This document shows, piece by piece, positions 6,665-56,176 of a DNA stretch of 64,000 bases. The DNA is from Lingula anatina (taxonomy: Eukaryota; Animalia; Brachiopoda). How positions within the stretch are numbered: the first letter of the stretch is position 1; each line of letters starts with the position of its first letter. The stretch covers positions 14,670,651 through 14,734,650 of the forward strand of contig CM120647.1 in the NCBI GenBank assembly GCA_051362555.1, written 5' to 3'. The notes under the pieces were generated by a model. That model did no database searches and was not told the DNA's origin. It was given only the letters and a program-made list of their open reading frames with translations. The position numbers were made by a program, and so were the translations under genes.

Positions 6665-7723
6665 ATGGACGATATCGAAGCCAACTACTCTCTTCAGTTT
6701 ATCCCCAGCTGTGACAACGGAACCGAATTCCGCCTGACCGAGGCCTCTATTATCGGTCTCCCGGTCTTGCTCGGGTTGATCTTCGTAATCGGCCTCTTCG
6801 GAGATGCACTGGTGCTGTACATCGTACAGAAAAACAAACACATTAATATTCTGTTTTTTCACATCGCATTGGCGCACTTGCTTCTACTGTTGGTATGTAT
6901 TCCCGTGCTCTGCGTGCGCTACATCACGTCCTACGAAGTCGCCATCACGGACCCACTCTGCAAACTGGTGCACTTTTTAACGTACGTTGCCGTTGGGGTA
7001 AGCGTGAACTGCTTAGTTGGAATATGCCTGTTGAAGTACATTGCGATCACACATCCCGTTGACTGTATGATAACGAGTCGTCATGCAGTTATTCTGGCCT
7101 TCTTCATATGGGCCACCATAGGCTCGGCAAATGCACCGCTATTGTGGTACTACAAAGAAGCGGATGGCGACGTCTGCCGCCTAAACCCAGAACACGACTA
7201 CCAGTACCTGATTTTCATAGGCTTGACTTTTGGGTTAGACTTTGCCTTGCCGGTGTTGACAATTTGTTGCATCACTTTGGGGATAGCTATTCAGGTACAC
7301 CGCCAGGAGGTGCACGAAGGCAGTACAGCACTGAGGAGAACTAACAAACGCTTCATTCGGCTTGTTTTGAGCATCCTTCTCGTGTTCGTTCTTACGTGGG
7401 GACCCTTCCATCTCGCCTACCTACTTGCGATGTTTCGAGTTTATGACAATGCGTGTCCTAAAAACGCCGCTGTGTTTAATTTTGCCGTGGTTTTGGGCCT
7501 CTCAAACACGTGCCTGAATCCAATCGTGTATCACTTGGCTTCATTGGAGTTCCGCCAGGCGTTTTGGAACACGCTAAGGGCAATGCGAACAATGGGTCAA
7601 GCACCGACGGACCACGAGGCTGGGCTTGAGCTGAGGCCCCTTTCAGGCATATTCAGGCAGAATAATGCTAATGTGACGTCATACTCGTGTAGGTCACCAA
7701 CATCAACCACGTGCCCAGTGTGA
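6665..7723 (+). CDS. Intronless class A (rhodopsin-like) GPCR, peptide-receptor-like, with atypical activation motifs (paralogue A)
   Basis: 352-aa ORF from an ATG in strong Kozak context (gtcaccATGg); the ORF track starts at an upstream TTG. Seven hydrophobic segments, N-terminal sequons (NYS, NGT), TM3 Cys (LCKL) plus ECL2 Cys, TM5 FALP, TM6 TWGPFH, TM7 SNTCLNPIVY, helix 8 EFRQAF. Confidence 0.95.
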   Translation: MDDIEANYSLQFIPSCDNGTEFRLTEASIIGLPVLLGLIFVIGLFGDALVLYIVQKNKHINILFFHIALAHLLLLLVCIPVLCVRYITSYEVAITDPLCKLVHFLTYVAVGVSVNCLVGICLLKYIAITHPVDCMITSRHAVILAFFIWATIGSANAPLLWYYKEADGDVCRLNPEHDYQYLIFIGLTFGLDFALPVLTICCITLGIAIQVHRQEVHEGSTALRRTNKRFIRLVLSILLVFVLTWGPFHLAYLLAMFRVYDNACPKNAAVFNFAVVLGLSNTCLNPIVYHLASLEFRQAFWNTLRAMRTMGQAPTDHEAGLELRPLSGIFRQNNANVTSYSCRSPTSTTCPV

Positions 7724-7766
7724 AATATGATTGGTTCGAGCCTAAGAATGACGTCATATGACGTCA
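7674..7766. promoter_or_regulatory. Cluster of three perfect CRE/ATF palindromes (TGACGTCA)
   Basis: TGACGTCA at 7674-7681, 7749-7756 and 7759-7766; the last two form the 18-bp palindrome tgacgtcatatgacgtca. Function not demonstrated. Confidence 0.3.
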
Positions 7767-9108
7767 CATTGGAATTGTCCTACCTGAAAATGCATTAACA
7801 TGGGTTCAGTTTTACCATGCATATAGATGGAAAACCGTCGCTTTTGTTTGAAGTTGTCAGTAACTGTCTCTTTGATGGATAAGGATTGTTGAAGTAGTTT
7901 CATCCTAAGTGATTAACGCTATCTTTACTTACAACAACTTGTATCATAAATGCAGTAGTTTCCTTTAGTAATGAAACCGTGCAATACTTGTTATTTTTGG
8001 ACTGCACATGTTTTTACATTTACATGCATATATTGCTTAAATTTAGATGTTATTTAAAAGACATTGCTGTTATTAGTTGACAATGTATGACCATGGTACA
8101 CAAACGGTCAATAGAAATGTCACCCTTACCAATACTTTGGGGGAGATAAATGACTGTGGAATAATATGCTCCTGGTATCATTTTATTAACATCAAATTTC
8201 ACAAAAAAAAAAAAAAAAATGTAGACCAGGCATTATAACTACTCAAGATCTGCCTACTTTGATAATTGATTACTTGATTATTATTTGATTACTCTGATTC
8301 AGGAGGGTGACACTTCTATTGTCCATTGTGTGTACATGCAGATGTCAGAGTCGCTGTGTAAGTTATGTATACGACCGTGGTAAGACAACAGTTTCTTGGT
8401 CCAATAGAGTCGGGTACACGTTCACCCTTAGAGATATACACGCTCACCCTTCTCATTTTTTTTGTACTGCATGGTTTGTAATATTTACGATACACTGCAG
8501 TGGATGGAAGCTACTTCTTAATTAAGGCATAAACTTCCATGTAGTCAGGTACTCAATTGATATAATGAAGATTCACTGTTTCCTTTCTCGCAGCGTACGT
8601 GAGCTATAATATATTAATATATTGATAGGAAGACACATAAAATAAGATGACACTGAAACCTAATGAAATATTGGACCAGTACCGGAAGATATGATAGATG
8701 CAACATGTATCTCTTGTAAAACGTGTCCCTTTAATTAACGACTCTTTCACTTAAAATTATGACATGCATTTAAATATAAGTCTAAAATTAAACAGACAAA
8801 TGAAAAATTGCTGCGTTATAGGCTTACAGCTAGCAGTGCATGCTATAGTCCTGTACCACTCTTGTTTGATGGAATGACAGATTTTGCACCTAAGATTGCT
8901 GTAATCCAACCGTTTTACATATGACCCTGTACTAGGGCGACAGATTGATTTTCCACAGATATTCACAGATATGTCTCTAGATAAATAGACAGTCGTTTTG
9001 GTCTGATTCAGCCAAAAATGTCCACAATAATAACTGCGGACCTGGTAGAGGGTACGAGATAAGTGACATCATGGGTAACCAAAGCAATCCTAGCTTTATT
9101 GTTATTAG

Positions 9109-9448
9109 AGGGATAATAACTCTTCGTTTTGGCCCAAAAATGAATTTTCCTGGAGTAAACAACAATTGTCCCATACTTACCAATGGTTAATGAATCCAAT
9201 TTTTACATTCAAAGTTAGTCCCTGTTTTTTTATCTGAAAAGTTTTTTTTTTCTGTAATAATCTCGTGAGAGATTATAACAGAGTATAGCCATCAATGGAG
9301 GTCACGTGGTCTAAAAACAAGCTCAGATATCAGAATAATAGTTGTACCTGCCGTTTTTGTGGTACAACAGAATATATTATATTTCTATGAGTTGTTCACA
9401 ATGTTTTTATTGTGAAATGTAGATCTCATACGAAGAGTTATTATCCCT
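9109..9448. mobile_element. Non-autonomous TIR element (Kolobok-like MITE)
   Basis: 19-bp TIRs agggataataactcttcgt / acgaagagttattatccct, flanked by ttag and ttaa (TTAA-type target, purine-first termini). A second rearranged copy lies at 29078-29388. Confidence 0.8.
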
Positions 9449-11044
9449 TTAAATAATTCAAAGCCCCCCCCTTCTATTTACTTGCTGAAACAGAAACCCA
9501 GCCATACCATAGCAATGCCAATGACTCCATTACTGCCTTAGTTCTATGAAAATTGCACTGAAACTCAATCTGCATCATTTGTGCATATAAGAAGGTATTT
9601 AAGTGATGATAACACCATATTCATCAGTGCATTTAAGACTTAATTTGATAATTAAGGGATCATTTTATGACGCCTGAGTGCGATCAGACTGACGTGAGTG
9701 GCCTATAAAGTACTATAGATATGACATGTTGGTACTTTATCTCGTACTCATTATCACGTTTAAGCAGCTATTTCATACCAGTTACCAGTTTCAATGAATG
9801 CATATTGTCGGTAATTGCACATATGTTTGCCTTGAAACGATCTATTTAGGTTTTGATACCATTTTATCTCGTTTGTTATTCCAGAGGATCATTCACGCTT
9901 GCTTATAACTGCCTGGAAGGCAAAGTTGATAGTTTAGAATTAGAAAAAACCTGTAATTCAATGAAAACATCCACACAATTTTCAAGACGCCAAAGCAAGC
10001 AGCAGCCATTTCACTGTAAAATATTTGGCCAGAAGTCTACCGCAGTCAAAAGTGTCACAAAGTGTCTCTAGCTTACAACTCGAGCACGATGCGACATTGC
10101 CTCAAAAATAAACTTGGCAAGTGACAGACTATGGGAATATAAGATCCGTTTTACAAAGCTCTAAACGGTTTTAATCAGGCGGTAGCTTTGTTTGTAAGAC
10201 GTTTATAAAGTAGATTTATATTGCAACAACGTTCGGGATTAATCTTCAAATGAGGCGAACCCTCGACTTCGGATCCCTGTGGCGAAATTGCCCAGGGACC
10301 TTAGCTCTGCAAAGAAATATGAGATGATGAATAAAACAGAACTGCTTTATTCCTATAGCCCCTATTGATGAATGTGGATTTGCATGAAACCATGTCCTAG
10401 GGCTATCAACAACTTAGCTTCATTTTGTCTGCTAGCCATCAGCGCTAGCCGATTTTAATTAACGCCTTAAAGACATGAAGAGGCATTGAAACATATGTGA
10501 GTTTGACATACAGGAAACAAACGGCATTGAATTTGGCGTGGTTTGATATGTATCTGCATTATTAGTCATGGAGTCATGGTGAAGTGCGTCATCAATTTAA
10601 ATCCGCCGATTGAACTTCTTATCAATTTCCTGTGCAGTTCTTCTGTTGGTTATCTAGATTCTTTTCCAATATTTTAATGGTGAAAATTCATATCATGTAG
10701 AACTTTGATTTGAACAATATCCATGCAACTGCCAGTAAGTTTTTGATATTTGGAAGCACAAAAAAGCAACACATTCGTAAGGTCTCGGCTCTTCATAATA
10801 TACCACGTCTATCGGACATTTGCCCAAAAAGTCTGAGATACCAATGTAATTCACTTGAGATAAATCTTGATTAGGAAATTTACGATCATTTATAAGGATT
10901 ACTCTTTGTTAAATGAAAACTGGAAAGAGAACGACGCGTGTCTGAATGTAATGAGAAATATTTATGGTACTCCTGTTTTTTTAATCTTGTTAACACTGAA
11001 AGCACGCGATTTTGACATTAGCTAATATCGGTATATATAATATC

Positions 11045-11046
<2 letters not shown>

Positions 11047-11087
<41 letters not shown>
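11047..11087. repeat. (TA)n microsatellite
   Basis: About 20 TA units, preceded by a short duplicated taatatcggtatata. Confidence 0.95.
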
Positions 11088-11090
<3 letters not shown>

Positions 11091-12427
11091 CATAACGGAT
11101 ATAAAACCAACCCCTTGATATACTTGAAATGAACACACCATATTGTAACGTTAATGTCATTTTACGTTAAAGATACTGCAGATCATGCATATTTGGTATT
11201 GATCATTTTTACCTTATGAAGACGGTTCATCTCAACCACATTAAATGCATTTAAATACAAGGCACATATCTTACTGCAAACATTCTAAATGTCATTATGT
11301 GCGTGTAAGTAAAATGCCACGAAAATGTAGGAACAATTAAATTCAACTTCTAGCGCATGTGCAAACGCTGGCAATTCATGGTATCAATCATTGCTCTTGT
11401 TTTCCGGAGTCATTTCAGACAGTGATTGGGATCAGACTGGATCAAGAAATCCAGAGATAAGATGTAGATTTATTTAGTCAATACACATACATATTTGTTT
11501 GGCCAATAAATATACAATAACGGGAATTTATTACCCCTTCGTTAGCAAAGAAGTTGGGTAAAAGATAAAAGATATAGAACCTTTATAAAACCATGATTAG
11601 GCAAAATCTCAATTTTGAGGGTTGTGGGGGGGGGGGGAGCGGCTCACAAGGAAAACGGTATCTGCTAAAAAACTGCAACAAAGGGGGCTACAGTAATTAC
11701 CTGGATTTGTCGGCGACCATATGCTATCAGCTACATGAATTTGTAACATTAATAATGCTAATAAAGATAACAGTTACACTGGTTTAACCTTTGATTTTTT
11801 TCAATTTGATAGTGAATACCTTTTGAAATCGATGTATGTACAGTTTTAGGTCGAAATGCTTTTCGAAGCATAACTTTAAATCTAATTGCTTTCAAAACAG
11901 TTTTAACATCCCCATACAACCCTTAGAAACTAATGTTTACATACACTTAAAGAGATACATATGTTGAAAGACAGACTACAGGTAACAACAACCTGTGACC
12001 TGACAACTACATGTAGATTACTGGTATGTATACCGTTCATATGCTCATTTAGCCCGTTTACACTGTCATTTAAAAACCTTTTTTTTTCTTAATTCGATTC
12101 ACTGGTTTGTTCACACACGCTAAGCGAAACCAAATCCCACGTTGAAAAGTTCCAGGTTCAACTTCCTGTTTTGAACACTCACGCATGCGTCGCACAGGAA
12201 AACTCAAAATACAAAACAAAAATATGGCGCCATTTACGGCTCTAATCGTACTCAGCTTCTGCCTTCTGCTTTTATTTTTGACAGCAAGTGCAACTCAAAA
12301 GATATGCTCATAGTACCGTATAGCTTACAAAAAGCCCAAAGATTACTTATTAGAAACATCCGTCATTATGAATAGTGCAGTCATTTTTGTTTTCGGTAGC
12401 CATTTCTTGCGTGCGGTCATCGTGGTT

Positions 12428-12699
12428 TATTTCCAGATAAAAGCATTATTGTACTTCTGTCTATTAACCCACTGCTTATCTATGGTTATTAATGCTTTAA
12501 AAAGCTCTTATATTGCTGGCTAATTTAGTCGCTAATGGATGATTCGTGTAGGTGATGGGTATTTCCAGATCAAAGCATTATTGTACTTCTGTCTATTAAC
12601 CCGCTGTTTATCTATGGTTATTGATACTTTAAAAAAGCTCTAATATGGCTGTAAGATGGTTGATTTAGTCTCTAGTGGTTGATCCGTGTGGGTGATGGG
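12428..12699. repeat. Diverged tandem duplication, two units of ~132-140 bp
   Basis: tatttccagat(a/c)aaagcattattgtacttctgtctattaaccc...ggtgatggg starts at 12428 and again at 12560. Confidence 0.9.
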
Positions 12700-12779
12700 T
12701 GGATTAACACGAACGTCACATTGTTAATGTGTTCAGTTGTGCTGAACCACATATTTCCCTGCACGCAACATAATGTGTT

Positions 12780-13022
12780 TAGCCTAGGTCCCAACCGAAC
12801 GTACGGGCTATTACGTGTGGTCTACGGCCAAAAAAATGGGGAAAACGTGGGAGTTCGTGCCTGAGGAGCACGTCCATCGTGCGACTTTTGGAGGACGCAA
12901 ACAGCACGTAGAAACTTTTCACCAATTACTTGATTCCTTCCCTTTGATCTATCTAGCTACGTCCTAGCCGGACGCAAGGAACCTAAAAACCGTGCGTCCA
13001 AAACGTAGTTGGGACCTAGGCT
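12780..13022. mobile_element. MITE with 15-bp TIRs (possibly Academ-like, TAG-type terminus)
   Basis: agcctaggtcccaac at 12781-12795 and gttgggacctaggct at 13008-13022; GC-richer interior. Confidence 0.7.
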
Positions 13023-16000: not shown

Positions 16001-16696
16001 GAATCTCAATACTTGGTGAAAAATTCAATTTGTGGCCTTGGTGCGGGTTAGCGAATTTCACTCGTGACAGCAAAAGTGAAAAGTTATCAATATTATATAA
16101 GCAACAAACAGGCATTGTTTGTCTTAGGCCAGCAATACTGGACAAAGCAGAGTCAATTTATACATACAACTGTAAATGGAATAAAATGACAACCACCCAA
16201 TGCTTTCCATCGTAAACAGATCCTGCAGTAGTATCCTTAATTGATATTTATTAGAGACGTAAATATCCCCAATGCCTAGCTAAGATTTTATGCCGTCACT
16301 ATAGGCGTAGTGGACCAGAGAAACTAACCAGAACTGAGAGGGAAATCGACTGCCATCAACGCTGGAACTCTCTCAGTGAATCAACAAGAAACACAATACA
16401 ATTTCAGCATTTCTTTTAAAAAAGATTCGATAACATATATATATATAATGTTTATGCCAGAACGGAATTGGTTCATTTTTTTGTTGCTTTTGGACCAATA
16501 ATAAAGTATTTTGCATTCACCACCAAAACCATCCTATTTTCAGAGATTGTACATACGATAGGGATTGTTGTAAAAACATGAGAAGATAAGTGATATTTGC
16601 ATTTTTATAGAGAAGCTGTGGCATCAAATTCACCAAAGCCTGCAATTCAAGATAGAACTGATTAAAAACCCTCAGTCGATCTTTTCCAGTATCTAT

Positions 16697-17009
16697 GGGA
16701 CCATTCAGATCGGGAAGAGACGAGGTTTGGCTAGGCCGCGACCTAAATATGGCGGACCTACATGAAAGAAAGACCGGTTAATCCTGTAATGGTCTCTCCG
16801 CCTCTCACACGGCTCCCCACGCGTCATCCCTCGACCGGTTGAATTGAGCCGAGATTTAATTAATGTGCCCCTGCGCGGACGACGCGTGGGGAGGAGTGTG
16901 AGAGGCGGAGAGACCTTTGCAGGATTAAGCGGTCTTACTTTCATGTAGGTCCGCCATATTAAGGTCGCGGCCTAGCTAGACCTCGTCTCTTCTCGATCTG
17001 AATCGTCCC
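16697..17009. mobile_element. Palindromic MITE, PIF/Harbinger (Tourist)-like
   Basis: About 135-bp inverted arms (gggaccattcagatcgggaagagacgagg... / ...cctcgtctcttctcgatctgaatcgtccc) with 3-bp TSD tat at 16694-16696 and 17010-17012. Confidence 0.9.
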
Positions 17010-17473
17010 TATGTTATCTGTCTTGTCACAGTAAACAGAGCAAAGAAAGCCCAGTTCTGTACGTGCTATCCAGTTATTCTATGATATTGTACTGGGTAAA
17101 TTATAACACATAAGCCATTTTATGGAACAATTATTTCAATTCAATTCAGTTTATTTACTTGTACGTAGATTAGCATGGCCTTGTAAAGTATAATGTTATA
17201 ATAAAAAGAGCAAAATAATGTGAATGAGCAAATATAGCCTTAAAAATTGGCAGATGTACTAGTTAAATTACTCATGGAATAGTATAACTTAATGGTTATA
17301 TTCAATTTTTTGGTGTGTTCAAATATTTTTCATCAATATAAATCATTCAGCATACATTTACACTGTGCAGTTGCAGTGTATGTACCTGTATGTAACATAA
17401 TATTGGGTAATTAAAATTTTACAAATTATACATGTATGCTAGGAGTTACCAGGAGAGGCAATTCCTTCCACTT

Positions 17474-18950
17474 CTAATTAGTCGTCTGTTCTGAATGTGG
17501 TTTTAGACGTAGTTCAGCAAGGGCTGATAAACTGTCATCATTTTTTGTTCAGGAGAGAAAGCCATTTTACCGTTGAATTGAAGTTAAGTGTTGCGTAATT
17601 GAGTAAATTGCTCGATTTGTCTCTGAAAATTGTGATGAAGTGTTTTGGAGGCGACTGACTAAGCCAAGCAATGTTTGATTACTTGAAAAGGTTAAAAAGA
17701 CAGGGCTTCCTTTTGTCGGCGTTTCATTTTCAGTTTAATGAAAGTGCATGTGCGTAATGGGCGTTACGTACATTTTATGTTATATAACGTTACAGTAATG
17801 CAGGCTTCATGCGCATCGAGACTGTAATTTCCTTTCTACATTCATTTTAAAGGGAAAAGGGTGAAGCAATCACTTGTTCCACTTTTTTTTCCTGTATACA
17901 CGGATGCTAATGTCACAACTAGATTATCTTTATAGCGAAGTCAATGAACTACTGCATTATTAACTGTCACGGAGAAGAAAAAAAGGGGACGTTAAAAGAA
18001 GACTTATTTATCTTTGTTGGCACTGTTACTAAACACTTCGTATAATTTTCTTAATGATGACCTTGTATCAGCTTTTAGGGTTGACGGTTTACTACAGAAA
18101 GTCTCTGGTCTGTATGGGTCATTGGGTATTGAAGTGTAATAAGTCATTCATCTTAAATTGCCCCTTGGGTACACAGTCGATAGATTGTGCCGCACCTTTC
18201 AGTTTTCAGCCCCGTGTACCGCCCTGTTTGGATTTGGAGATTATGATCACTTAGGCCGCATTCCGAACAGCGGAGTAACTAGTGCGCAGGTCAAATATGG
18301 CGACCCACTAAGGGCTTGCCGTCTAATCCGCTATTAGACACTAAAGGAGTCCCCGTGGGGAAGTATTCAAGTGGGTCGGCCATATTTGATCCTCGGACTA
18401 ATTAGTCTTCTGTTCTGAAAGCGGTCTTAGACGTAGTTTAGCAAGAGCTGATAAACTGTCATCATTTGTGACTGTATCAACAGATGTTGCTCTTTCACAT
18501 TTTTTGTTCAGGAGAGAAAGCCATTTTGCCGTTGAATTGAAGTTAAGTGTTGCGTAATTGAGTAAATTGCTCCATTTGTCTCTGAAAATTGTGATGAAGT
18601 GTTTTGGAGGCGACTGACTAAGCCAAGCAATGTTTGATTACTTGAAAGGTTAAAACGACAGGGCTTCCTTTTGTCGGCGTTTCATTTTCAGTTTAATGAA
18701 AGTGCATGTGCGTAATGTGTGTTATGTAAATTTTAATGTCATATAATGTTACGGTCATGCAGGCTTCATGAGCACTGAGACTGTAATTTCATCTCTACAT
18801 CCACGTTGAAGGGAGAAGGATGAAGCAATCACATGTTCCACTTTTTTTCCTGTACTCACAGATGCTAATGTCACAACCAGATTAGCTTTATAGCGAAGTC
18901 AATGAACTACTGCATTATTAACTGTCACGGAGATGAAAAAAAGAGACGTT
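17474..18950. repeat. Direct duplication of ~520-550 bp (17474-17993 and 18398-18950)
   Basis: Colinear copies from ctaattagtc to gacgtt; the second copy has ~35 extra bp bounded by cattt microhomology. Confidence 0.95.
18254..18426. mobile_element. Short Harbinger-like MITE
   Basis: Imperfect ~55-bp TIRs (ggccgcattccgaacag...tcaaatatggcgacccact / agtgggtcggccatatttga...ctgttctgaaagcggtc) with TSD tta on both sides. Confidence 0.75.
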
Positions 18951-20200: not shown

Positions 20201-20231
<31 letters not shown>

Positions 20232-20830: not shown

Positions 20831-20833
<3 letters not shown>

Positions 20834-20861
<28 letters not shown>

Positions 20862-20947: not shown

Positions 20948-21156
20948 TTCTTTTAATCATGATATCCAACTTTTATACAAACCATTGAAGATTTCGTTCA
21001 TTTGGAGAACAGAAAAAAAAAAATAGATCACACCCTAAGACCAATTGGAGTGTCTACATTATGGATCGCCTACAGCGTCCCCAAATCATCATCAATCAGT
21101 GCCCGTCTGAAGCAATTATGTTTTAATGATTACAGTAAAAAGGAAAAACTTAGGGA

Positions 21157-21371
21157 AAAGGAATGGCCTAGTAAAATAAATGACCTAGTGAAAAGAATGG
21201 GCTGGTGAAAAAAAACCTGTTGAAAAGGAATGACCCAGTTAAAAGGAACGACCCAGTGTAACCTAGTGAAAAAAATGACCTAGTTAACAAAATGGCCCAG
21301 TGAAAAGAATGACTTAGTGAAAAGAGTGACCTAGTGCAAAGGAATGAACTAGCGCAATGAATGACTTAGTG

Positions 21372-21419
<48 letters not shown>

Positions 21420-21580
21420 CCAGTGAAAAGGATGACCTAGTGAAAAGGAATGACCTAGTGAACAAAATGACCCAGTGAAAAGAATGACCTAGTGAAAAGG
21501 AATGAACTAGTGCAATGAATGACTTAGTGAAAAAAAAAACCTACCCAGTGAAAAGGATGACCTAGTGGAAAGAATGACCT
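21157..21580. repeat. Minisatellite, ~19-21-bp unit (gtgaaaag(g)aatgaccta), interrupted by a poly(A) expansion
   Basis: Roughly 18 degenerate units with higher-order repetition, and a long A-run at ~21372-21416. Confidence 0.9.
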
Positions 21581-22470
21581 AAAATTGAAAGAGGTTCCCC
21601 ACAAAGTGCAATTTTTATTTACATTTTGGCGGTGCACGTAAATATTCCTACATTATATAACGGATGTAAATGTTAAATACTCTAATATACTAGAAACCTA
21701 TTGAGACCAAATACTGATTTATCCTTACATTATAGCATTTATACCTTATTTGCCTCCTTATGTGCACATACGGAACAGAAGTTATTTCTAAAATCTATAA
21801 ATTAATTGCAAATCTATATTAATACATTCTCTCTTATTCCCTTTTTTTCCAATTCCTCATATGATGTACCGTCAAGTAAACTTTCAGTTATTTGAACACA
21901 GACCTACATGAGAGAGAGAGAGAGGGGCACACAGGCAGACAGACAGACAGACAGAGAGACAGACAGTCAACCAGCCAAACTTGATATCCAGAGGAGAAGG
22001 GGGTGATGAAAAGACTGACAGGAAAGATTAATTGCATGTCACAGTCAGATTCATAGACATTCAACAGACAGAATATTAATCAAATTCTCACCGTGTTCTT
22101 ATTAACGGATGCCAGATTGATATCCATAAATCTTGACACCTTTGTGATTGTTACTGCCAAACACTGATCTTTGGAAGTTCGCTGAATTGAAGCCTGGGAA
22201 CATCCTGACGGTCTCTTTAAAGAGTATTTAAAGGTGATATTTAAATTTTACCCTGAGTCCTTCGCCAGAATTGATGAGTTAAGAAGAGTTCGTTTTTTTA
22301 TATTGCGTATAACCAGGCCAACATTATTACAGTGTGATTTAAGTTGCATGTTGGTTAGAAATGTCAAGTCCGTCAGGTGTATACCATCACATCATATTCT
22401 AACGCTTGAAAGACATACTTCTAGGCATACAATGCGCGGTAGACACATTGAAACATGTATATTGCACCGA

Positions 22471-22633: not shown

Positions 22634-22693
22634 CCGGTATAAAAAGTTTTGATTCCCAATGGAGAGGTATGGGCAATGCGCATTTTACTGTGA

Positions 22694-22732
<39 letters not shown>

Positions 22733-23058: not shown

Positions 23059-23532
23059 ATAGTCACGAAATCAAATACATGAACTAATTCAAATACTAGG
23101 AAATTAATGCACTCGTTTGAGCGGTAATGCCAAATGACTTAATGAACAGTAATGACATCATGTACGTCACATGGGAAAATAAGACAAATATTAAACACAG
23201 ACTGATCTCAAACGAACGTACTTGTACAGAGGCAAGTTAGAATAACATCAGTAATTACTATGTTTAGGAAGACCGTAAATAGCGCATTTCTACCAATAGT
23301 CACGAAATCAAATACATGAACTAATTCAAATACTAGGAAATTAATGCACTCGTTTGAGCGGTAATGCCAAATGACTTAATGAACAGTAATGACATCATGT
23401 ACGTCACATGGGAAAATAAGACAAATATTAAACACAGACTGATCTCAAACGAACGTACTTGTACAGAGGCAAGTTAGAATAACATCAGTAATTACTATGT
23501 TTAGGAAGACCGTAAATCGCGCATTTCTACCA
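23059..23532. repeat. Near-perfect tandem duplication, 237-bp period
   Basis: atagtcacgaaatcaaatac...gcgcatttctacca at 23059-23295 and 23296-23532; one substitution seen (aatagcg vs aatcgcg). Confidence 0.95.
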
Positions 23533-23781
23533 AATTGCCATTTTCCTAATATGCCTTATTAAATCTCCCCAATAAAATGACATAAAATACATTAATAAGA
23601 TAACCTGCAAGGAGAATCCATTTTACTTATTAGACCACAAATGATATCCACTGGACAAATACACATTTACTGCGAAAAGAGAGGTCATGGTGACCTCGCG
23701 GTGGTGATTCAGTTTGGAATAGTGTCGCACACTACCGAGAGGGGCGTGAAACCCAAGAGACGCCCAAATGGAAGCTCATTT

Positions 23782-24565: not shown

Positions 24566-26500
24566 ATAGGGACAGTCGGTCATCCGGGCACTTTACCTTA
24601 GCAACCGGCATCTGGGGTAAAACAAATCGGGCAACATGGCGGATCGCATTGACTACTATGTAAAAGTTGGCAGACTTTGTCCGAAGATATCATACTTCAC
24701 AGTTCCTGACCACTTGTGTCAGTGAGGATGAGTTATTTACCTGGTCGATTTCCTTTACAGGCTTTTGTAAATATCCGCTGCACACCTGGTTAAGAGATAA
24801 AATCGGCCTTAACTGCCGATCGTTATCTGTGATCGGGAATCTTACAGTGGTAGATTGCAAAGACTCATTTGCTTACCTGGATGAGCATAATATTCACATC
24901 TCTTTGAAAAGAAAACCATACGGAAGCAACTGATATTATCAAGGAAGGTTTCAATTGTACTTATAACTGTTGACGTTGCATATTGCTGACACATACGAGT
25001 AGATTTTGCAGGCCTACTGAATTGCACAGGTACCGTTTAACTCTCAGGCACGTACAAAAGTTAAATAGTGGAAGCTTGCTGTGTACCAGGTGACACTACC
25101 AACACATTGATAAAATCTAATGGGATTTGTTAAATTTCAAAGATCAACGGAAAAGTAAACGACTGTTGCAGGCTATAGGTTGTGCAGACGTGACTAAATA
25201 CGGGATTGTTGATCGAAACAAGATTTGGTCATAGCTATACATGCACTACGAGATTTGTGTATGTGTGTATAGTTCATTTTATTATAGAGAGGGAGAAAGT
25301 CATTGTACCTTGTTTGGTATTTATGTTTGTCATTTGTTACCGGAATTAATAAGTAATATTTACAAGAAATTGAGATTGCATCTTGTTTTGGCATGTGTGA
25401 CGGTATATCAATTCTTTTAGTTAAAATTAATGGACTATAACGTCGAACTTTTTTGCTGTAAGTTGATTGAGTTTAAAGATAAGAAAAAATATGTACGTCA
25501 GTATATTGACAAACCTGTGAGTTAATGTCTATATCTTTAAGTTATCAAGTAAAATAAAAAAAGTTGCCATAAAAAAAGCGACCTTAACTGGTAAAATAAC
25601 ATACAGCTTTATTACTGTGTTTGTTATTCAATTTAATTTTAACCTTGCACGTTTTGAAACTTAGCGTTCTGTCTTCCATGATATTTCGCCAATTTTCGTA
25701 CCAGAAAAGTGCACAATAAGATTGTTAACACTCATAGACGCGTAGCTGCCAATATTAATACAGGAAACACCACGTGTCTTCTCTTCCAAAAAGTTAGCAA
25801 GCAACTGTTTATGCTGTCATTCCAGGCTTGCATTAATATTCATGTACTGTATACAGACCAAAGAGGCCATGGGACCGATGACATTGCCCCTATCCCGTCC
25901 CCCTGGCTATTGCAGCAGCAGGTGATTTAATCACAATTTGTAGAAATCTTATTCTAATAACTTCTCAGTGTTGCACATTTTGTAGGCCTTTCTTACGATC
26001 CACGTTCTAAGAAGCCATTCCTATTTCACCAACTTATGTACATTGTACATGTATATACTTAGGGTGGACATTTGCGTATGCAGTTTAGACCAATTTTATC
26101 CCGTAACAAGTTAAACAGTAGCTTATTACAAAGGCCTGCTTACTCATTAGTCCAGGTAAATGATTCAACCCGCCAGACACAAAAGGTCAAGCACTGCCTT
26201 TTCAAAATCTTCTGCTGTAAAATTGCCGATCACAGATAACGATCGGCAGTTATATTAAGGCCGATTTTATCTCTTAACCAGGTGTGCATCGGCTAATTAC
26301 AAAGGCCTGTAAAGGAAATCGACCAGGTAAATAACTCATCCTTACTGACACAAGTGGTCAGGCACTGTGAAGTATGATATCTTCGGACAAAGTCTGCCAA
26401 CTTTTACATAGAAGTCAATGCGATCCGCCATGTTGCCCGATTTGTTTTACCCCAGATGCCGGTTGCTAAGGCGCGTGACGTCAGCCCGACTGTCCCTATG
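24566..26500. mobile_element. 1.9-kb non-autonomous DNA element with ~280-bp TIRs
   Basis: 24566-24847 is the reverse complement of 26215-26499 with few differences; termini atagggacagtcgg / ccgactgtccctat(g); AT-rich interior with no transposase ORF. Confidence 0.9.
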
Positions 26501-42293: not shown

Positions 42294-42499
42294 AGGGCTC
42301 ATTACCAATGGTACTATCGTTCTACGAGGGGACTCGAGAGGAGTCGCTGAATGCAACCAGATTAACAATTATCGTACTCATTTAATCACCAGGTTTTCCG
42401 TATTCAACTCAACGTTGTTTATCTGATTGTATTCCGCCAGAGTCCCCGAGGAGTTGGATCGATCTAAGTAGTACGATATTTTCATTGGGAACGAGCCCT
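42294..42499. mobile_element. Old palindromic MITE
   Basis: agggctcattaccaatg..tatcgttctac...aaccagattaacaa mirrored by ttgtttatctgattg...gtagtacgata..cattgggaacgagccct. Confidence 0.65.

Positions 42500-43078: not shown

Positions 43079-43080
<2 letters not shown>

Positions 43081-43122
<42 letters not shown>
43081..43122. repeat. (CT)n microsatellite
   Basis: About 21 CT units. Confidence 0.95.
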
Positions 43123-43125
<3 letters not shown>

Positions 43126-44477: not shown

Positions 44478-44792
44478 CCTGTAAACTCTCAACCATTCTG
44501 TTAACCACTACTAAACTTTTATCCATGCCTGTAAACTTTCAGCCAGACCAGTTAACTTTCAGCCACACCAGTAAATTTTCAGCGACACCAGTAAACTTTC
44601 AGCCACACCAGTAAACTTTCAGCCACACCAGTAAACTTTTATCCATGCCTGTAAACTATCTGCCACCACTGTTAACTTTCAGCCACCCCATTACAATCTT
44701 TCAGCCGTGCCTTTAAACTTTCAACCACCCCTGTAAGCTTTCAGTCGCCCTTGTAAATTTCCTGCCACCCCTATAAAATTTCAGCCATGCCT
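44478..44792. repeat. Minisatellite, 20-bp unit (cagccacaccagtaaacttt)
   Basis: About 15 units, most homogeneous in the centre and diverged at the edges. Confidence 0.9.
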
Positions 44793-46242: not shown

Positions 46243-46320
46243 AATGATGTAATTTTTCTTCAGTCAACAGCTAATACTAATCTCAATATTAGTTGTTGAC
46301 TGAAGAAAAATTACATCATT
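46243..46320. repeat. 78-nt hairpin: 34-bp arms with one mismatch, 10-nt loop
   Basis: aatgatgtaatttttcttcagtcaacagctaata - ctaatctcaa - tattagttgttgactgaagaaaaattacatcatt. Confidence 0.9.
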
Positions 46321-49300: not shown

Positions 49301-52300
49301 TGTAAAAAGATACAGTAAATGTTCTAGAATAGATTGAGAACCGTAAGTGAACGTTAAATGAGACATTTTTGCATTTTTGCAGTCAAATTCAGACCATTGC
49401 TCAAAATGTTGGCGACCCACTTTGCTTGGCAACTGACTGACACGTATGGTGTTATCTACCAGTAGATTAAACGCCATTGAAGAAATAAAAAGGGCATGCT
49501 TAACTTCTCTGTGTTCTCAAATTGTAGCTTTACTGGATCGGACAGAGAACAAGAGAAACGCATTTTACTAAGTCAAATGGGGACGTGTACCTAATGGGAA
49601 AGTGAGCTTGTTCTCAGAAACTGTCGGAAGATTGTCGATGGCTCAGAGATATCCTCATGTTTTCCTGGAGTTGTACATCAAAATTTTTAATCGAACAATG
49701 CTGTCATCATATGGTGCACTGGTGCACTTAGGAAGGGAGTTTGAACTGATAGTTTGGGCTCGCTCTTAAATATTTAGAGCAATACGGAATGTCCAAAATG
49801 TCATTTATTTTATCCAAGTTATAGATTGGTTCCCTTCTTTCTTAACTGCACGTGTTTATCAAGCAATCGCACCGGAGACAAACATTTATTATGAAAGCTA
49901 GAGTTTTTACTTATTAAAAAATTCGCTTATTTTGTCTTTTCGAAAACCGATTGGCAGAAGGCACTGAGTTTGCACAGAACCAACCACATCAATACCATGT
50001 TGAACGTGAGAATTAAAAGCACTTACGGACTCATATGACTATGATTACCACTTGCCATGCGTTTCTGTCATATATGTCATAAATGCACTTTATAACTAGT
50101 CATATATTATTCAGGACCTTCACCTCGTCATAACACACAGCTCCAATTCACTACGCTTTTATGAGACTGCTTTGGCTCAGCGGATTGTTCTAAAGATAAT
50201 ACGTGCTTTCAAAATCCCTGTAGTCCCGAAACACCCTGGATTCAAAACGCCCACGCTTCATACATAATAAGTTAGACAAGTCAGGTTATATTATAGATGC
50301 GTTTGCTCTTAAGGCGTCAATACAATAGCACACGAGGCTGTGTTGCTGGGGTTGGCCGACTGTTTTGTGATTGCGCACATCCGTGACATTGTTGCTGTTA
50401 TGAGAGCAATTGGCTTTTTCTGTTATCGGTGTTTCCCTGGCGGTGATACAAAATTGAAACAAGCTATTAAGAAGAAAAGACCCAAAGGAATATACACCTT
50501 GGAATACAAGGGTGATTTGTATCTGAGGATTGCAGTGCTCGGCGCACAGTCGGAAAGGCACTCGGTGTGTGTTGAGTTTTCTTTCTTTTTTTAAAACCAA
50601 AGTCACTGAGAAACTGCAGAACGAAGAGCACATTGATACAACCCACGCACGTCATTCTGCTGGTAAATAACATAGCACAAGTCAGACAAAGCGGATTAAT
50701 GTTATGAATAGAGGACAGAATGATGCATTAGTGAATTTACGATTTTAAATTGAACAGGAGAACGGCAGGAGTCAAAGCACGAGGTGCATATACCTACAGA
50801 GATTCTCCAAGGGAAGTATGGAACAGTGCTCCGGGAGATGGACATCCTTCCATTGCGGACTACGTAACAGCCATTAACGAAGACTAAATTTTCTATTTAA
50901 AGGAAATGGGGCAGCAAGATCATGGTATACGAATATACACAATCTATTTTTGGGTTTTTTAACAGGCTTAAAAGAATCATATGAAGAAAAAACATCGTAT
51001 TTCCGCCTTCATACCGGTGCAAGGATGAATTCTGACCGGTGTAGCGAAAGTTAGAGGACTGAAGATATAAGTGAAGAGAAGATTGGAGGAAAATGCCAAC
51101 GTATGTGCATTTACGCCACGAGACACATACCGGAATATGGTATATGTATGTGACATATACGCAGTCAATGTGAAACCCTTAATGGCATTTCTCTGTAGGC
51201 AGACATACTGTCAGGAAAAATAGGACAGTACTTGCTGCAGATTTATGCCCAATTCAAGGGAAATATAACAATTGGCGATGAGACGCAGCATGGCAGAATG
51301 CTGACCAAGGAGTAACAAGGTGTATTAGCCGAGTGAACTTGAATCAGAGTGTGAATTTTTCCGTTGTCAATTGATTCTATAATGCAATGTGCATGACTGC
51401 TTCAAGTCGTTAACATACAATGTATTCATTCTGAAAGCTCATGCACACTTACAACGACACAGCTGCTGTATAAAACTGGGACTCCATACACACGGACATG
51501 TGAGAAGAGTTTATTCTTGTTTCAAAAACACGGCGCCTCTCCTGTTCCCGGAACCTTTCTGGGATAGGCAATAATTTAAATGGATGTGTCATCGTTGGTA
51601 AAGAATGTTATTATTAATTCAAAAAGTGAAACTGTGTTACAGGGATGCTGGTTGCGTGATATCGCCAAAGAACGTTAAAATAGCTGCGGGCGTATAATAT
51701 AAGCCTGTATTCTTCAGCAAGAAGAAGGCACGTTGGCTACGTATATATCCATTGGCCAATTAATTCGGAAAGACTGAGCGACTTAAAACCCTTCCCATTA
51801 ATGCGATATGGACTGGAATAGATTTGGTATCAGTGTACATATTCTCTATTATTTGTAACCTCAAGGAAAAAAAAAACATCGATACTGAAAGTTGAAACGC
51901 CATTTGCTGAGTCCTCGGGCGTTGTTCGTTTACATCCGCGTTGGCAATTTACGCTTATTAACACCACTTTACAATCGCAATTATCAGGTAGTTCCAATAC
52001 GCAAATGCGGTGGTCTAATTAGGAAGGATGGTATGGTAATGTACACGAGTGATTAGCTGTCCTTGTCTCCTGGTCAGTAAGACGAAGGTGGCAGGACATA
52101 GTTTATTTGAAGGGCATTCTATCAACCCATCAATCTAAACAAATAAATCAATATTCATATATTTGTATTCATATAAACATTGGAATATTCCGATTGGCTA
52201 AAATGTACTACGAAAGAACCAGCAGTTGCCGCCAGCAACTCTACGCAGAGATCAGTTGAACAGGAATCAGAACTGCTACGTGAAAAATTGGACAAAAACA

Positions 52301-54119
52301 TGGCTTGCCAACGGGGATATTACAGTAAAGAAACAACTCTTTATTGAACTGTAAGCAGTGAAAAAGGAGACGACGAAAAGTTTTTGACAACAGCAAGCAG
52401 ACAAAGTAAAGAAATTAGATTATAAAGAATCAGAACTCTGCAGTGGCAAATTGGACAAATATTGCTGATATTACCAACGCGTGGAATAATGTCTAGAACA
52501 GGCAAGAATCAATCACGCAATACGCAGTGTAAAGAATAAGCAGGAGAAAAGTAGGAGTGGAGTGTGTTTGTGTCATTGCATTGCACACTATGTTGGTTCC
52601 CTGGCATTTTGGCAGTAAGTCCAATGCCCACTGAGACGTAAAATAGATTCAGCAAAGTGCAGTGATCTTGCTACAGACATCGATGTAGACGTGAATATCG
52701 GCGAGCCAACACACCGTGGGATTAGCCTAACATTGAACAACACTAATTAAGGCTCAGAGGCTCTCGAACACGTTTTTTCGAACCAGGGGAAATCCGACAC
52801 GACAGTAATGACTACGGGGATTTCTTGCCGAGAACGATACGTTAAATGCTTGGGGTAGAGTGAGAACAATGGCCTGAAGTTTCGTGATTACCACAGCCAG
52901 GGTAGTCTTCTAGGTGGAAAACTGCACCTGGGTCAAGTGAGTAATATCAAGATTTAAGGCACAGTTAGCGCCATGAATTACTCTATCCCGCACATTTTGT
53001 GTGTTCTTTCAGTACGTTTAGTTGATATGTAAAATAGCCCGTTGCGTTCACATACGAAGTGCCGGTCCACGATAATATAGGATACGGAAAACTGCTCACT
53101 GACATGCATATGAATATCGGTTATAGAGTTTAGTCAATTCAGACTATACTTTTATGTTCCTTAACCAAGCAGAAGAAAACATCTTGTTAGAACCATTTGA
53201 CATATGGACATAGATACGTTTAACGTCACATAAATCAACCCACTGCCGGGGAGTATGGATAATAAACCCGGACAATTAAGATACATGTGCTGTTATGTAT
53301 ACGCCGGGTAAAATATGCGAATGAAATTAACGACTTATTCCCAAACTCGATAAAATTGCGCATAAAGCATACCTTTTAAGAAGATAAGATTCCGTCGTGT
53401 TTCATGACAGCTTCACGTGATAAATCTGTTATAGTGCACAGTATTCCGCCAAGGAAAAAAGGACAACTGCTGGAGAAACAGGAATGCATTTAAGAAAATA
53501 TGTTTTATGAAGCACGGAGTTAGCATAAACTGTATACACTTTTTTTCCTATTAATCAATTGTCTTTTCTGATAATTTCGTTCGTTAGACTTTGTGAATAA
53601 CTTTTGATCTTGTCGATAATCAACTAGACCAACGCCGGCGAAGACGTAACCGTCTTAAGGTTTAAGGACGTACGTGTACAGTTATTACACGCGAATAAGA
53701 CTTTTCAAGTCACCAATGCACTGGATTTGAAGAGGCGATAGATCAATTATAAACTATACCTAAGTGCAAGGCAGCAGCGCTTATCAATCGTGCAGTTGGA
53801 AAGTGTGGAAGGTATTCAACACGGAGCCGCAGTGGGAATTTCACAAACCGATAACCATAGTTAAACTGCTCTTGGAGAACAATTATTACACACTCTGATA
53901 TATTCACGCTGAAAGAGGAATCCGAGCAGCAACTGGAATGTACGGCTTGACAGCTGTAACGAAGGGAATAACGGAGTTAACATCAACGAAATCAAGAAAC
54001 AAAAAATGTGAGCTGGTTCACGAAGCATAAATTAAGTCACTAAACCTCAACTTAAAGATTGTAGTTAACGAGCCCTCGTGCTCATTGGTGCCTGTAGCGA
54101 CGCACGCGCGATAGACTAC

Positions 54120-54320
54120 CAGCAGCCAATGCGTACATTCCATAAGTTCGCGAACATGAAACTGATGTGCCAATCCGTGATACGACGTTAAGTGGAAGGA
54201 GCCTGACGCTGTCTGTCAACGTGATTGGTATAAATAGAGCATTCTCCACACAGTTCTTTGTAGCTGTCGTGAAGGACAACGCTGTCGTAGGCTCCAACTT
54301 CGTGTTAACGGGAGCCAATT
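54120..54320 (+). promoter_or_regulatory. Candidate Pol II promoter for the downstream GPCR
   Basis: CpG-rich patch with several CCAAT/ATTGG boxes (~54126, 54170, 54224, 54316), TATAAATA at 54229-54236 and Inr-like cagtt at 54251; possible 5'UTR splice acceptor near 55118-55122. Confidence 0.35.
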
Positions 54321-55153
54321 AGATTGCATAGCGTGGGCATCTTGGAATCACCAGCAACAAATCGTAGCATCAAGGCGTGCTCTACCTTCCCCTTAATGAG
54401 TCCTTAGACATTATTGGATAGAGACAATTCTTCGCTGATGATCGAGGAGAAACCAGCCACCGACCTTGGAAGATATATAGGAATTTTATAAGCCGCCTTC
54501 CTTTTTATATTGTAAGAAGGGCAACGTGAAATGAGATTGCGGGCAAAGCGAAAAGACAAAGACAGTTAAGATTAAAGCACAGGACTGTCGATAAACGCCA
54601 AAGGAGTTTGGTGAAGGTCTGTTCGTGCCTTTTTGTGCTGATAAACCGATAGCTACTGTCGTTAACATGTGATTAGACGTTGAACATTGTCGTCTTCGTG
54701 GCATTCATGGTTTAGAAACTGCGCTAAGGAATCAATTCAGAACTGAAAGGATAGTTACTCAGGGGCTCTGCGTTTGCCAAGTAGATTCAAGTGAGTGATT
54801 CGTGGCAAAGATAGGAATAAAGAGATCAGATTTTAGAGTCAGTCTGTCTTTGAATATATAAATACGTATTAACTGAAATACACCATTACGTTCTAAAGCA
54901 CGTGGTAGGAGTTACATTTCACAAAGACGTCAGGACAGCTTCCAAAGCAATCTGCGGCATAGAATTGGAAGCTGGATCTTAAAAGCACTGATGGAGTGTA
55001 AACTAATATTTTGAATAATGAACATTTTTTTTTTAAATCTACACACAACTGGGAAGAATAATTTACAGGGTTTGAACGAAAATCAGTGACGTGTTATCAT
55101 TTATGTTTTCCGTGACAGACAGGTGTTAAAATTGCAATAAACAAAAGCCAACG

Positions 55154-56176
55154 ATGGAGGGTATAAATTCAACTGAAATTTCCCTCTCGGATGACGTTTT
55201 AGTAAACACGACAGTAGACCTTATTTACCAGCGTTGTGGAAACCGAACCCATTTTCGAGACACCGACGCCTCCAAAATCGGAATCCCGGTACTTCTGGGC
55301 ATCGTGTTTGTCGTCGGGTTGCTCGGGAATATGTTGGTTCTATACGTCGTTTGCAAAAGCAAGAGGATCAGCTACCTTTTCTTCAACCTCGCTCTCTCTC
55401 ACCTGTTGCTGGTGTTGGTATGCGTGCCTCTCCAAGCAGCGCGGTTCGCATCAGGGTACACCGTGTACATTTCGAACCCCATGTGTAAACTGGGCTATTT
55501 CCTCATGTACACCACCACCGGGGTCAGCGTGAACTGCATGGTGGCCGTACTGGTGCTCAAATACATCGCTATCACGTGGCCCATCTCGTGCGAGATCTCA
55601 CGGAGACACACCGCAATCACAGCAGTGGGATTATGGATAGTCCTGGGGATCATCAACGCCCCTCTGTTGGTTTACTACAAAGAAACCGGTGAAAAACAAT
55701 GTGAGCTGCAACCCAGCAGTGACGCTCAGTATTACTCATTCATCGTCTTGACTTTTGGTCTTGACTTTGCCTTGCCTGTGTTAGTGTTCATGTGCATAAC
55801 GATGTCCGTCATGGGGAAGCTTAAAATGACCGCCATTCAGGTGGAAAATCGACTGGCCATGGCGGCCAATAAAAGACTGGTCATCCTTGTCCTCATTATC
55901 TTTGTGCTCTTCGTGGTCACCTGGGGGCCGTTTCACTTTAGCTATCTTTTTGCAATATTCGCCAGCCATATCTACAATCCTTTCTGCCCCTCACCGGAAA
56001 CGGTCGGCCTAAATTTCATGATCGTGTTGGCGTTTTCAAACTCGTGTTTAAATCCAGTGGTCTACAGTCTAGCGTCCATTGAATTTAGGCGTGCGTTTCA
56101 GGCTACCGTCAATAGATGGCGCTCCGTCACCCACACTGCCGAGGAGACTGAACTGACTAGGGTAGCAGAGAAGTAG
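55154..56176 (+). CDS. Intronless class A (rhodopsin-like) GPCR, peptide-receptor-like, with atypical activation motifs (paralogue B)
   Basis: 340-aa ORF, Kozak-like aacgATGg. Sequons NST, NTT, NRT; TM1 GN; TM3 MCKL plus ECL2 Cys; TFGLDFALPVL; TWGPFH; SNSCLNPVVY; EFRRAF. Colinear with 6665-7723. Confidence 0.95.
   Translation: MEGINSTEISLSDDVLVNTTVDLIYQRCGNRTHFRDTDASKIGIPVLLGIVFVVGLLGNMLVLYVVCKSKRISYLFFNLALSHLLLVLVCVPLQAARFASGYTVYISNPMCKLGYFLMYTTTGVSVNCMVAVLVLKYIAITWPISCEISRRHTAITAVGLWIVLGIINAPLLVYYKETGEKQCELQPSSDAQYYSFIVLTFGLDFALPVLVFMCITMSVMGKLKMTAIQVENRLAMAANKRLVILVLIIFVLFVVTWGPFHFSYLFAIFASHIYNPFCPSPETVGLNFMIVLAFSNSCLNPVVYSLASIEFRRAFQATVNRWRSVTHTAEETELTRVAEK

What the first reader, a model, noticed from the sequence alone, without database searches (positions are those of the whole stretch)
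6665..56176. Pair of intact GPCR paralogues sharing a rewired activation machinery (H2.50, LKY for DRY, T5.58)
Seen: both ORFs are intact and well diverged, yet carry the same substitutions at near-invariant class A positions. TM2 LAxxD is IALAH / LALSH (His codons 6875 and 55400). TM3 DRY is LKY (7031-7039 and 55556-55564; counting from C3.25 places K at 3.50). TM5 position 5.58 is Thr in both. S3.39, W6.48/P6.50, NPxxY and helix 8 are kept. Known: D2.50 coordinates the allosteric Na+, R3.50 and Y5.58 are central to G-protein activation, and altered DRY motifs typify atypical scavenger receptors (ACKR2 has DKY). Inference: retention in two old paralogues suggests selection rather than decay. 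This may be a lineage-specific subfamily with non-canonical signalling, such as decoy/arrestin-biased behaviour or a His in the sodium pocket conferring pH or metal sensitivity. Whether it is already described cannot be determined here.
Basis: partly seen in the sequence, partly recalled or inferred. Interest (0 to 1): 0.8.

Follow-up and report, generated by a model that had tools for sequence, protein, structure and literature searches.

The report
Brachiopod receptor pair lacking sodium-site aspartate
Two intact hormone-type receptor genes of a lamp shell share a very rare histidine where almost all such receptors bind sodium, but most of their other oddities are inherited from a known receptor family, so they are likely sodium-independent peptide receptors that still signal rather than decoys.

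Summary
Observation confirmed. Both ORFs (352 and 340 aa, 49% identical) are intact class A GPCRs with H2.50, L-K-Y at 3.49-3.51 and T5.58; the genome is the brachiopod Lingula anatina. The interpretation needs splitting. Hydrophobic 3.49 and Ser/Thr 5.58 are not special to the pair: all 16 members of their clade have them. That clade matches the brachiopod group published as orthologous to the Platynereis FLamide and DH31-2 receptors, and the deorphanised FLamide receptor itself has I-R-Y and Ser5.58. Only H2.50 and K3.50 are pair-specific (0 of 195 other fetched proteins), and each arose once in the pair's ancestor. K3.50 is compatible with G-protein coupling (RXFP1, BILF1). The genes are under purifying selection and weakly transcribed, but specific selection on His or Lys is not shown. 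Best reading (0.45): sodium-independent, still G-protein-coupled F[V/L/I]amide-type receptors. Decoy/arrestin reading: 0.25. New variant of a known kind.

The parts
6665..7723 (+). Gene A: uninterrupted CDS, 352 aa class A GPCR of the brachiopod FLamide-receptor-like clade
   Evidence: reads
6803..6805 (+). Gene A Asp at 1.50 (normally Asn); possible partner of His2.50
   Evidence: D in 1 of 197 rows
6860..6862 (+). Gene A His at 2.45 (Asn in the other 15 family rows)
6875..6877 (+). Gene A His2.50 (pair-specific)
7031..7039 (+). Gene A L3.49-K3.50-Y3.51 (Leu family-wide, Lys pair-specific)
7238..7240 (+). Gene A Asp5.46, family signature, likely facing the ligand pocket
7274..7276 (+). Gene A Thr5.58 (Ser/Thr family-wide)
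55154..56176 (+). Gene B: uninterrupted CDS, 340 aa class A GPCR, sister paralogue of A
   Evidence: reads
55400..55402 (+). Gene B His2.50 (pair-specific)
55556..55564 (+). Gene B L3.49-K3.50-Y3.51
55763..55765 (+). Gene B Asp5.46, family signature
55799..55801 (+). Gene B Thr5.58

Best explanation
The window holds two old tandem paralogues of a brachiopod GPCR clade that matches the published relatives of the Platynereis FLamide receptor; they share His2.50 and Lys3.50, and are likely peptide-activated receptors that still couple to G protein but would be insensitive to sodium. Shown: intact genes under purifying selection, weak transcription, clade placement, and the order of changes (acid lost at 3.49 first, then Tyr5.58 lost and Asp5.46 gained in the brachiopod clade, then H2.50 and K3.50 once in the ancestor of the pair, then D1.50 in gene A alone). 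Inferred: an Arg-Phe-Leu/Ile-amide type peptide binds with its Arg near Asp5.46; His2.50 fills the sodium pocket and leaves no anionic ligand for Na+; with no acid at 3.49 there is no lock on 3.50, so Lys suffices as the cation facing the G-alpha C-terminus; in gene A Asp1.50 may pair with His2.50 and restore the charge balance.
For: Clade: A+B 100/99, with P0002 99/95, inside a 16-row clade 100/100, inside a 26-row clade lacking D/E3.49 (93/92) (40 rows chosen from 194). Lingula transcripts matching P0013, P0015 and P0016 and one Novocrania sequence with the same signature are in the gamma-rhodopsin set of PMC8557429, whose text says the only orthologues of the FLamide and DH31-2 receptors are in brachiopods. 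The FLamide receptor has I-R-Y and Ser5.58, DH31-2 has L-R-Y (read by eye from the supplement passage); the assay of that study used G-alpha-16 and aequorin (described in PMC5577450). K3.50 couples in RXFP1 and BILF1; ORF74 signals with S2.50 and V3.49. G-protein-facing positions 3.53, 3.54, 5.61, 6.33 (PMC6954041) plus P34.50, hydrophobic 34.51, R6.32 and helix 8 keep ordinary residue types in A and B. C-tails are not richer in Ser/Thr than relatives (11 in 47 and 5 in 20 residues; relatives 0-15). Lingula encodes four F[V/L/I]amide precursor transcripts, many peptides ending Arg-Phe-Leu/Ile.
Against: No functional data exist for A or B. D2.50A abolishes agonist response in A2A and a D2.50 variant makes the delta-opioid receptor arrestin-biased. 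No receptor combining H2.50, K3.50 and loss of Y5.58 was found signalling; RXFP1 keeps D2.50 and Y5.58. A and B depart from canonical columns more than any relative (9 and 8 of 30 against 3-7 in 14 relatives), as expected if activation were no longer needed. The kept G-protein-facing residues are also structural and used by arrestin. A and B are far from the FLamide receptor (nearest family member 36-39% identical), so the ligand is a guess. The published tree file was cut in the viewer, so the link between this clade and the FLamide group rests on the paper's text plus shared sequences.
Confidence: 0.45

Rival explanations
1. Decoy or arrestin-biased scavenger: the pair bind the family's peptides but no longer activate G protein, and remove or shape peptide signals as atypical chemokine receptors do.
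For: ACKR2 has D-K-Y-L-E-I-V and signals through beta-arrestin 1, not G protein. D2.50 loss abolishes or biases signalling in A2A and delta-opioid receptors. A and B have the most departures at canonical columns. The two changes appear together on one branch. The 8-row subclade has an N-terminal Cys and an ECL3 Cys in 8 of 8 rows, like chemokine-type receptors (comparison recalled).
Against: ACKR2's motif also carries Glu at 3.53, whereas A and B keep Ala3.53 and Ile3.54. K3.50 receptors RXFP1 and BILF1 couple. No Ser/Thr enrichment of the tails over relatives. Scavengers are usually abundant (recalled), whereas read counts are low here. The tree places them with allatostatin-A/FLamide-type receptors, not chemokine receptors.
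Confidence: 0.25
2. His2.50 is a proton or metal switch: its protonation (helped in gene A by Asp1.50) replaces sodium as the allosteric cation, making the receptors pH- or metal-tuned.
For: His is titratable near physiological pH (established chemistry). Position 2.50 is proposed as the protonation switch of class A receptors (PMC4286134). GPR151 shows that a built-in cationic side chain (K3.39) can take the place of Na+. Gene A has D1.50, H2.45 and H2.50.
Against: No measurement. D1.50 and H2.45 are absent from gene B. The change from Asp to His is a single base, and a buried neutral His can simply serve as a hydrogen-bond partner. No second conserved His/Cys near the pocket is shared by both (3.39 Ser, 7.45 Asn, 7.49 Asn).
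Confidence: 0.13
3. Ligand-independent (constitutive) or accessory receptors: loss of both inactive-state stabilisers (Na+ site, 3.49 acid) gives tonic signalling, or the proteins act as partners of other receptors.
For: D3.49N raises A2A basal cAMP eightfold; D-R-Y to V-R-Y makes CXCR2 constitutive and BILF1 with K3.50 is constitutive; ORF74 with S2.50 and V3.49 has high basal activity.
Against: W6.48, P6.50, F6.44 and NPxxY are canonical; the pocket signature Asp5.46, Tyr3.33 and His6.52 is kept in both, which suggests a ligand. Loss of Y5.58 removes an active-state latch. The FLamide receptor lacks the 3.49 acid yet is ligand-activated.
Confidence: 0.13
4. Decaying pseudogenes or assembly errors.
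For: Low read counts; A and B are absent from the transcript-based set of PMC8557429 (0 hits for four motifs); a near-identical copy of A is annotated as a 218-aa fragment.
Against: Both frames are open although synonymous sites are saturated (pS 0.796, pN 0.346). Differences to a diverged population are mostly synonymous (12 of 18 listed CDS changes, expectation 25%, p 0.0002). The same rare residues in two genes 48 kb apart with different Lys codons cannot be one sequencing error.
Confidence: 0.04

Closest known systems
Platynereis FLamide receptor / DH31 receptor 2 group and its brachiopod orthologues (Thiel et al. 2021, PMC8557429)
   Same: Rhodopsin-gamma peptide receptors next to allatostatin-A receptors; hydrophobic residue at 3.49; Ser5.58 in the FLamide receptor; Lingula relatives P0013, P0015, P0016 are in that paper's set.
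   Different: All of those keep D2.50 and R3.50; the annelid receptors lack Asp5.46; A and B are not in that data set and have no tested ligand.
Allatostatin-A/buccalin receptors (and galanin, somatostatin receptors)
   Same: Sister group in the tree (35-row group 98/92); best solved relatives SSTR5 and GALR2 at E about 1e-26; source of the automatic names of the family.
   Different: They keep D2.50, D-R-Y/F and Y5.58; Lingula has separate D-R-Y type sequences in the PMC8557429 alignment.
RXFP1 and EBV BILF1 (K3.50 receptors that couple to G protein)
   Same: Lys at 3.50.
   Different: RXFP1 keeps D2.50 and Y5.58; BILF1 keeps Glu3.49; neither is related by descent.
ACKR2 (atypical chemokine scavenger)
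   Same: Lys at 3.50.
   Different: Keeps Asp3.49, adds Glu at 3.53, binds chemokines, vertebrate; A and B keep Ala3.53/Ile3.54.
GPR151 (orphan with rebuilt sodium pocket)
   Same: A basic side chain in the sodium pocket and a non-polar 3.49.
   Different: There Lys3.39 pairs with a kept D2.50 and 3.50 is Cys; here D2.50 itself is replaced and 3.50 stays basic.

Membership tests
Class A (rhodopsin-like) GPCR | 7tm_1 match above the curated cut-off and a 7TM plus helix 8 fold | tested here: met
Brachiopod FLamide-receptor-like clade | Nested with strong support among Lingula proteins that are in the published brachiopod group | tested here: met
   (16 rows, 100/100); transcripts matching P0013, P0015, P0016
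Brachiopod FLamide-receptor-like clade | Signature seen here: hydrophobic 3.49, Asp5.46, Ser/Thr5.58, no ECL1 Trp | tested here: met
   (Asp5.46 in 15 of 16 clade rows; the rest in 16 of 16)
Platynereis FLamide/DH31-2 receptor orthology group | Sister relation of the brachiopod clade to the annelid receptors | tested here: inconclusive
   Paper text says so; my tree joins the clade to unnamed look-alikes and an Owenia protein (98/92), with TM3 of P0056 matching the FLamide receptor at 27 of 32 residues by eye; the Platynereis proteins were not in my tree and the paper's Newick was cut
Platynereis FLamide/DH31-2 receptor orthology group | Activation by F[V/L/I]amide or DH31 peptides | not testable with these tools
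   needs a cell assay
Allatostatin-A/buccalin receptors | Inside the D-R-Y type AstA receptor set, with D-R-Y and Y5.58 | tested here: not met
   motifs absent; A and B lie in a separate 26-row clade
Atypical chemokine receptors | Descent from chemokine receptors | tested here: not met
   A and B group with AstA/FLamide-type receptors, away from the XCR1-like and chemerin-like rows
Atypical chemokine receptors | Altered D-R-Y region | tested here: met
   L-K-Y-I-A-I, but without ACKR2's acidic 3.53
Atypical chemokine receptors | Ligand uptake and arrestin recruitment without G-protein activation | not testable with these tools
   needs a cell assay

The most novel reading that the evidence does not exclude
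A natural class A GPCR pair in which the sodium/proton switch at 2.50 has been inverted from acid to histidine, with gene A adding a reciprocal Asp1.50-His2.50 ion pair and gene B having neither of the two canonical buried acids, so that peptide signalling is gated by pH instead of sodium.
Probability: 0.12. Interest if true: 0.75.

Novelty: new variant of a known kind. Interest (0 to 1): 0.42.

Why it matters
D2.50 and D/E3.49 are described as the only two conserved buried acids of class A receptors and the ends of a proposed proton-transfer path needed for activation (PMC4286134). Gene B has lost both and has no Asp7.49; gene A has lost both and gained Asp1.50. Close natural sisters keep D2.50 and R3.50, so the family is a graded series for testing whether sodium and the 2.50 acid are required for signalling. 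It also bears on the open question, raised in PMC8557429, of which receptors serve F[V/L/I]amide peptides. The reach is limited: one brachiopod genus so far, no ligand, and single-motif losses have many precedents.

Tried and rejected
No whole genome is held, so family size is a lower bound from protein searches. Word-seeded searches with A, B and the family profile and the full scan with A (best 150 of 5213 hits listed) found no orthologue of A or B outside Lingula; orthologues above 50% identity could hide inside clusters. The run index listed no RNA holder, which is no evidence either way; raw reads were laid instead. Reads piled at 7222-7257 were rejected as evidence for A: their loose ends match gene B, so 27 of 41 reads in X7-X9 and 3 of 9 difference rows were dropped. 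Whether the diverged population keeps His2.50 and Lys3.50 could not be read (only 40 of 275 differences shown; depth about 1). The idea that this clade supplies a missing buccalin receptor ('not identified' for Lingula in PMC8514136 table S1) was dropped because D-R-Y type Lingula sequences are in the PMC8557429 alignment. The association of acidic 3.49 with Tyr5.58 (100/14/41/42, Fisher p 8e-9) is not used: the rows are kin. ESM Atlas gave only generic 7tm_1 neighbours. Pfam scan of 143 shorter frames: no hit above cut-off. Searches for a class A His2.50 (6 papers each) listed class B and other non-class-A uses; only PMC4286134 was opened, and its H2.50 is class B numbering. I recall, unchecked, that human GPR141 has His at 2.50, so the residue may not be unique. 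Bauknecht and Jekely 2015 is not held. Four look-ups of earlier findings returned nothing. The model of B was not searched; complex prediction was not run because receptor-G-protein pairs would pass by likeness.
Full report
Observation. The window has two ATG-started ORFs of 150 aa or more: gene A at 6665-7723 and gene B at 55154-56176, both on the + strand and uninterrupted. tblastn finds no third copy in the window, and 143 shorter frames give no Pfam hit above cut-off. Both are 7tm_1 proteins, 48.9% identical. His2.50, L-K-Y and Thr5.58 sit at the stated coordinates, and alignments to SSTR5 and GALR2 fix the numbering. The AlphaFold model of A is a normal class A fold. Among 197 aligned proteins, His2.50 and Lys3.50 occur only in A and B; the 181 rows outside my initial 16-row family set have Asp 178, Asn 1, gap 2 at 2.50 and Arg 179, Cys 2 at 3.50. 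Gene A alone also has Asp at 1.50.

Organism and family. A's 90% cluster contains a protein named from Lingula anatina on a contig of the same length. After the pair and A's near-copy, the ten best hits of the full scan are all L. anatina proteins with automatic names such as allatostatin-A receptor-like. In an IQ-TREE tree of 40 rows chosen from 194 (near-identical duplicates left out), A and B are sisters (100/99), joined by P0002 (99/95), within an 8-row subclade (95/93) and a 16-row clade (100/100); this lies in a 26-row clade with no acid at 3.49 (93/92), beside D-R-Y type allatostatin-A receptors, with galanin and somatostatin receptors outside (FastTree on 194 rows agrees). Of the 14 other clade rows, 13 are named Lingula proteins and P0042 is unnamed. 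All 16 have a hydrophobic 3.49, Ser or Thr at 5.58 and no ECL1 Trp; 15 of 16 have Asp5.46. The fewest changes on the tree are one for 2.50, one for 3.50, one for the 3.49 acid and two for Tyr5.58. So the 'rewiring' came in steps, and only His2.50 and Lys3.50 belong to the pair.

The clade is known, the pair is not. In PMC8557429 (passages of the main text and parts of the supplement read) the gamma-rhodopsin set holds Lingula transcripts matching P0013, P0015 and P0016, a Novocrania sequence with the same signature and a Glottidia fragment very like P0012. The text states that the only orthologues of the Platynereis FLamide receptor and DH31 receptor 2 were found in brachiopods. Read by eye from the supplement, the FLamide receptor has I-R-Y and Ser5.58, and DH31-2 has L-R-Y and Tyr5.58. 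The deorphanisation procedure of that study used G-alpha-16 and aequorin, as described in PMC5577450 (passages); the original paper is not held. Thus loss of the 3.49 acid and of Tyr5.58 is compatible with ligand-evoked G-protein signalling in this lineage, at least with a promiscuous G protein. A and B themselves gave no hit in that supplement. Ten literature searches listed nothing on this pair; the library lacks most subscription papers, and two image-only supplement files of PMC8514136 could not be searched.

Selection and expression. Over 279 codons, pS is 0.796 (saturated) and pN 0.346, so the duplication is old and the proteins are constrained. For B, four RNA runs gave 20, 10, 246 and 4 reads over 50000-58500; in the three stranded runs about 16 of 17 pairs are in sense orientation by the depth table, and some lie upstream of the CDS; no splice joint was seen. 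For A, run X2 gave 10 reads, and X7-X9 gave 14 after 27 cross-mapped B reads were dropped. Listed CDS differences to the reference (mostly from the diverged population in X7-X9) are 7 synonymous of 12 for B (12 of the 40 rows shown out of 275) and 5 of 6 for A; together p 0.0002 against 25% synonymous sites. Against residue-specific selection: 117 of 239 ordinary columns are identical between A and B, as are 3 of 11 His and 6 of 10 Lys columns, so keeping two given residues is not remarkable. A and B also depart from canonical columns more often (9 and 8 of 30) than their 14 relatives (3-7), which fits either new function or relaxed constraint on activation.

Mechanism. D2.50, D/E3.49, R3.50 and Y5.58 are 92, 94, 98 and 90% conserved in class A (PMC4286134, passages). 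Lys3.50 is found in receptors that couple: RXFP1 in a Gs complex (bioRxiv 2022.01.22.477343, passages) and BILF1, where K3.50A abolishes cAMP inhibition (PMC4353375, passages). It is also found in the scavenger ACKR2, which adds a charged residue at 3.53 (PMC9168005 and PMC6174752, passages); A and B keep Ala3.53, Ile3.54, Pro34.50, a hydrophobic 34.51, Arg6.32 and helix 8, several of which are listed G-protein contacts (PMC6954041, passages). Loss of D2.50 is the harder change: it silences A2A and biases the delta-opioid receptor to arrestin, yet ORF74 signals strongly with Ser2.50 and Val3.49 (PMC12462484, passages), and GPR151 has a Lys in place of sodium (PMC13167728, passages). I therefore infer that the pocket no longer binds Na+ (fairly safe), that the receptors still couple (0.45), and hold the decoy (0.25), pH/metal (0.13) and constitutive or accessory (0.13) readings open. 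The ligand guess is F[V/L/I]amide peptides: Lingula has four such precursor transcripts with many Arg-Phe-Leu/Ile ends, and Asp5.46 could be the counter-ion (inference only). The Asp1.50-His2.50 pair in A recalls the Asn2.50/Asp7.49 swap of the mammalian GnRH receptor (recalled); side-chain geometry could not be read from the model output. All 8 rows of the subclade have an N-terminal Cys and an ECL3 Cys, against 1 ECL3 Cys in the other 8 clade rows, suggesting a second disulfide.

Other papers opened: PMC8514136 (passages, table S1 rows), PMC4595640 (passages: 1.6% heterozygosity, extensive family expansion, no GPCR mention), PMC6037435 (passages), PMC6408891 (no Lingula mention), bioRxiv 2026.06.25.734477 (two passages).

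Verdict. Real, intact, weakly expressed paralogues; a new variant (H2.50 + K3.50) of a known annelid-brachiopod receptor group. Interest 0.42.

Noticed in passing
P0003 (contig of 481,582 bases, outside the window): A near-identical copy of residues 135-352 of gene A (2 differences in 218 aa), annotated as a 218-aa protein: recent duplicate or second haplotype.
   Followed up: partly
P0002; P0013 and P0014: Other family members lose other near-invariant residues: P0002 has Asp at 6.50, P0013 and P0014 have Asn at 6.48, P0013 has Phe at 7.53. The family as a whole tolerates switch changes.
   Followed up: no
window 7222-7257 and the matching TM5 stretch of gene B near 55747-55782: A 36-base tract is near-identical between A and B although synonymous sites are saturated elsewhere (9 of 14 same-residue codons identical in that block against 52 of 147 overall); it causes cross-mapping. 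Old gene conversion or strong constraint.
   Followed up: partly
window 55100-55125: A pyrimidine-rich stretch ending in AG about 30 bases upstream of the start of gene B looks like a splice acceptor of a 5' UTR intron; no joint was seen in reads.
   Followed up: partly
window 6710-6712 and 7454-7456 (gene A), equivalents in gene B: N-terminal and ECL3 cysteines shared by all 8 rows of the subclade, a possible second disulfide.
   Followed up: partly
window 1614-2161 (-): Two short frames that resemble, from memory, a decayed non-LTR reverse transcriptase; no Pfam hit.
   Followed up: partly
window 16697-17009, 17532-18950, 21151-21581, 23059-23533, 24596-26471, 44512-44787: Repeats between the genes: an imperfect palindrome, a 463-base direct duplication (92%), 17-mer and 20-mer arrays, a 237-base tandem pair at 99%, and a 266-base inverted pair (94%).
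   Followed up: no
P0011/P0158, P0012/P0159, P0019/P0160, P0029/P0199: Near-identical pairs on different contigs, probably haplotype copies that inflate the family count.
   Followed up: no
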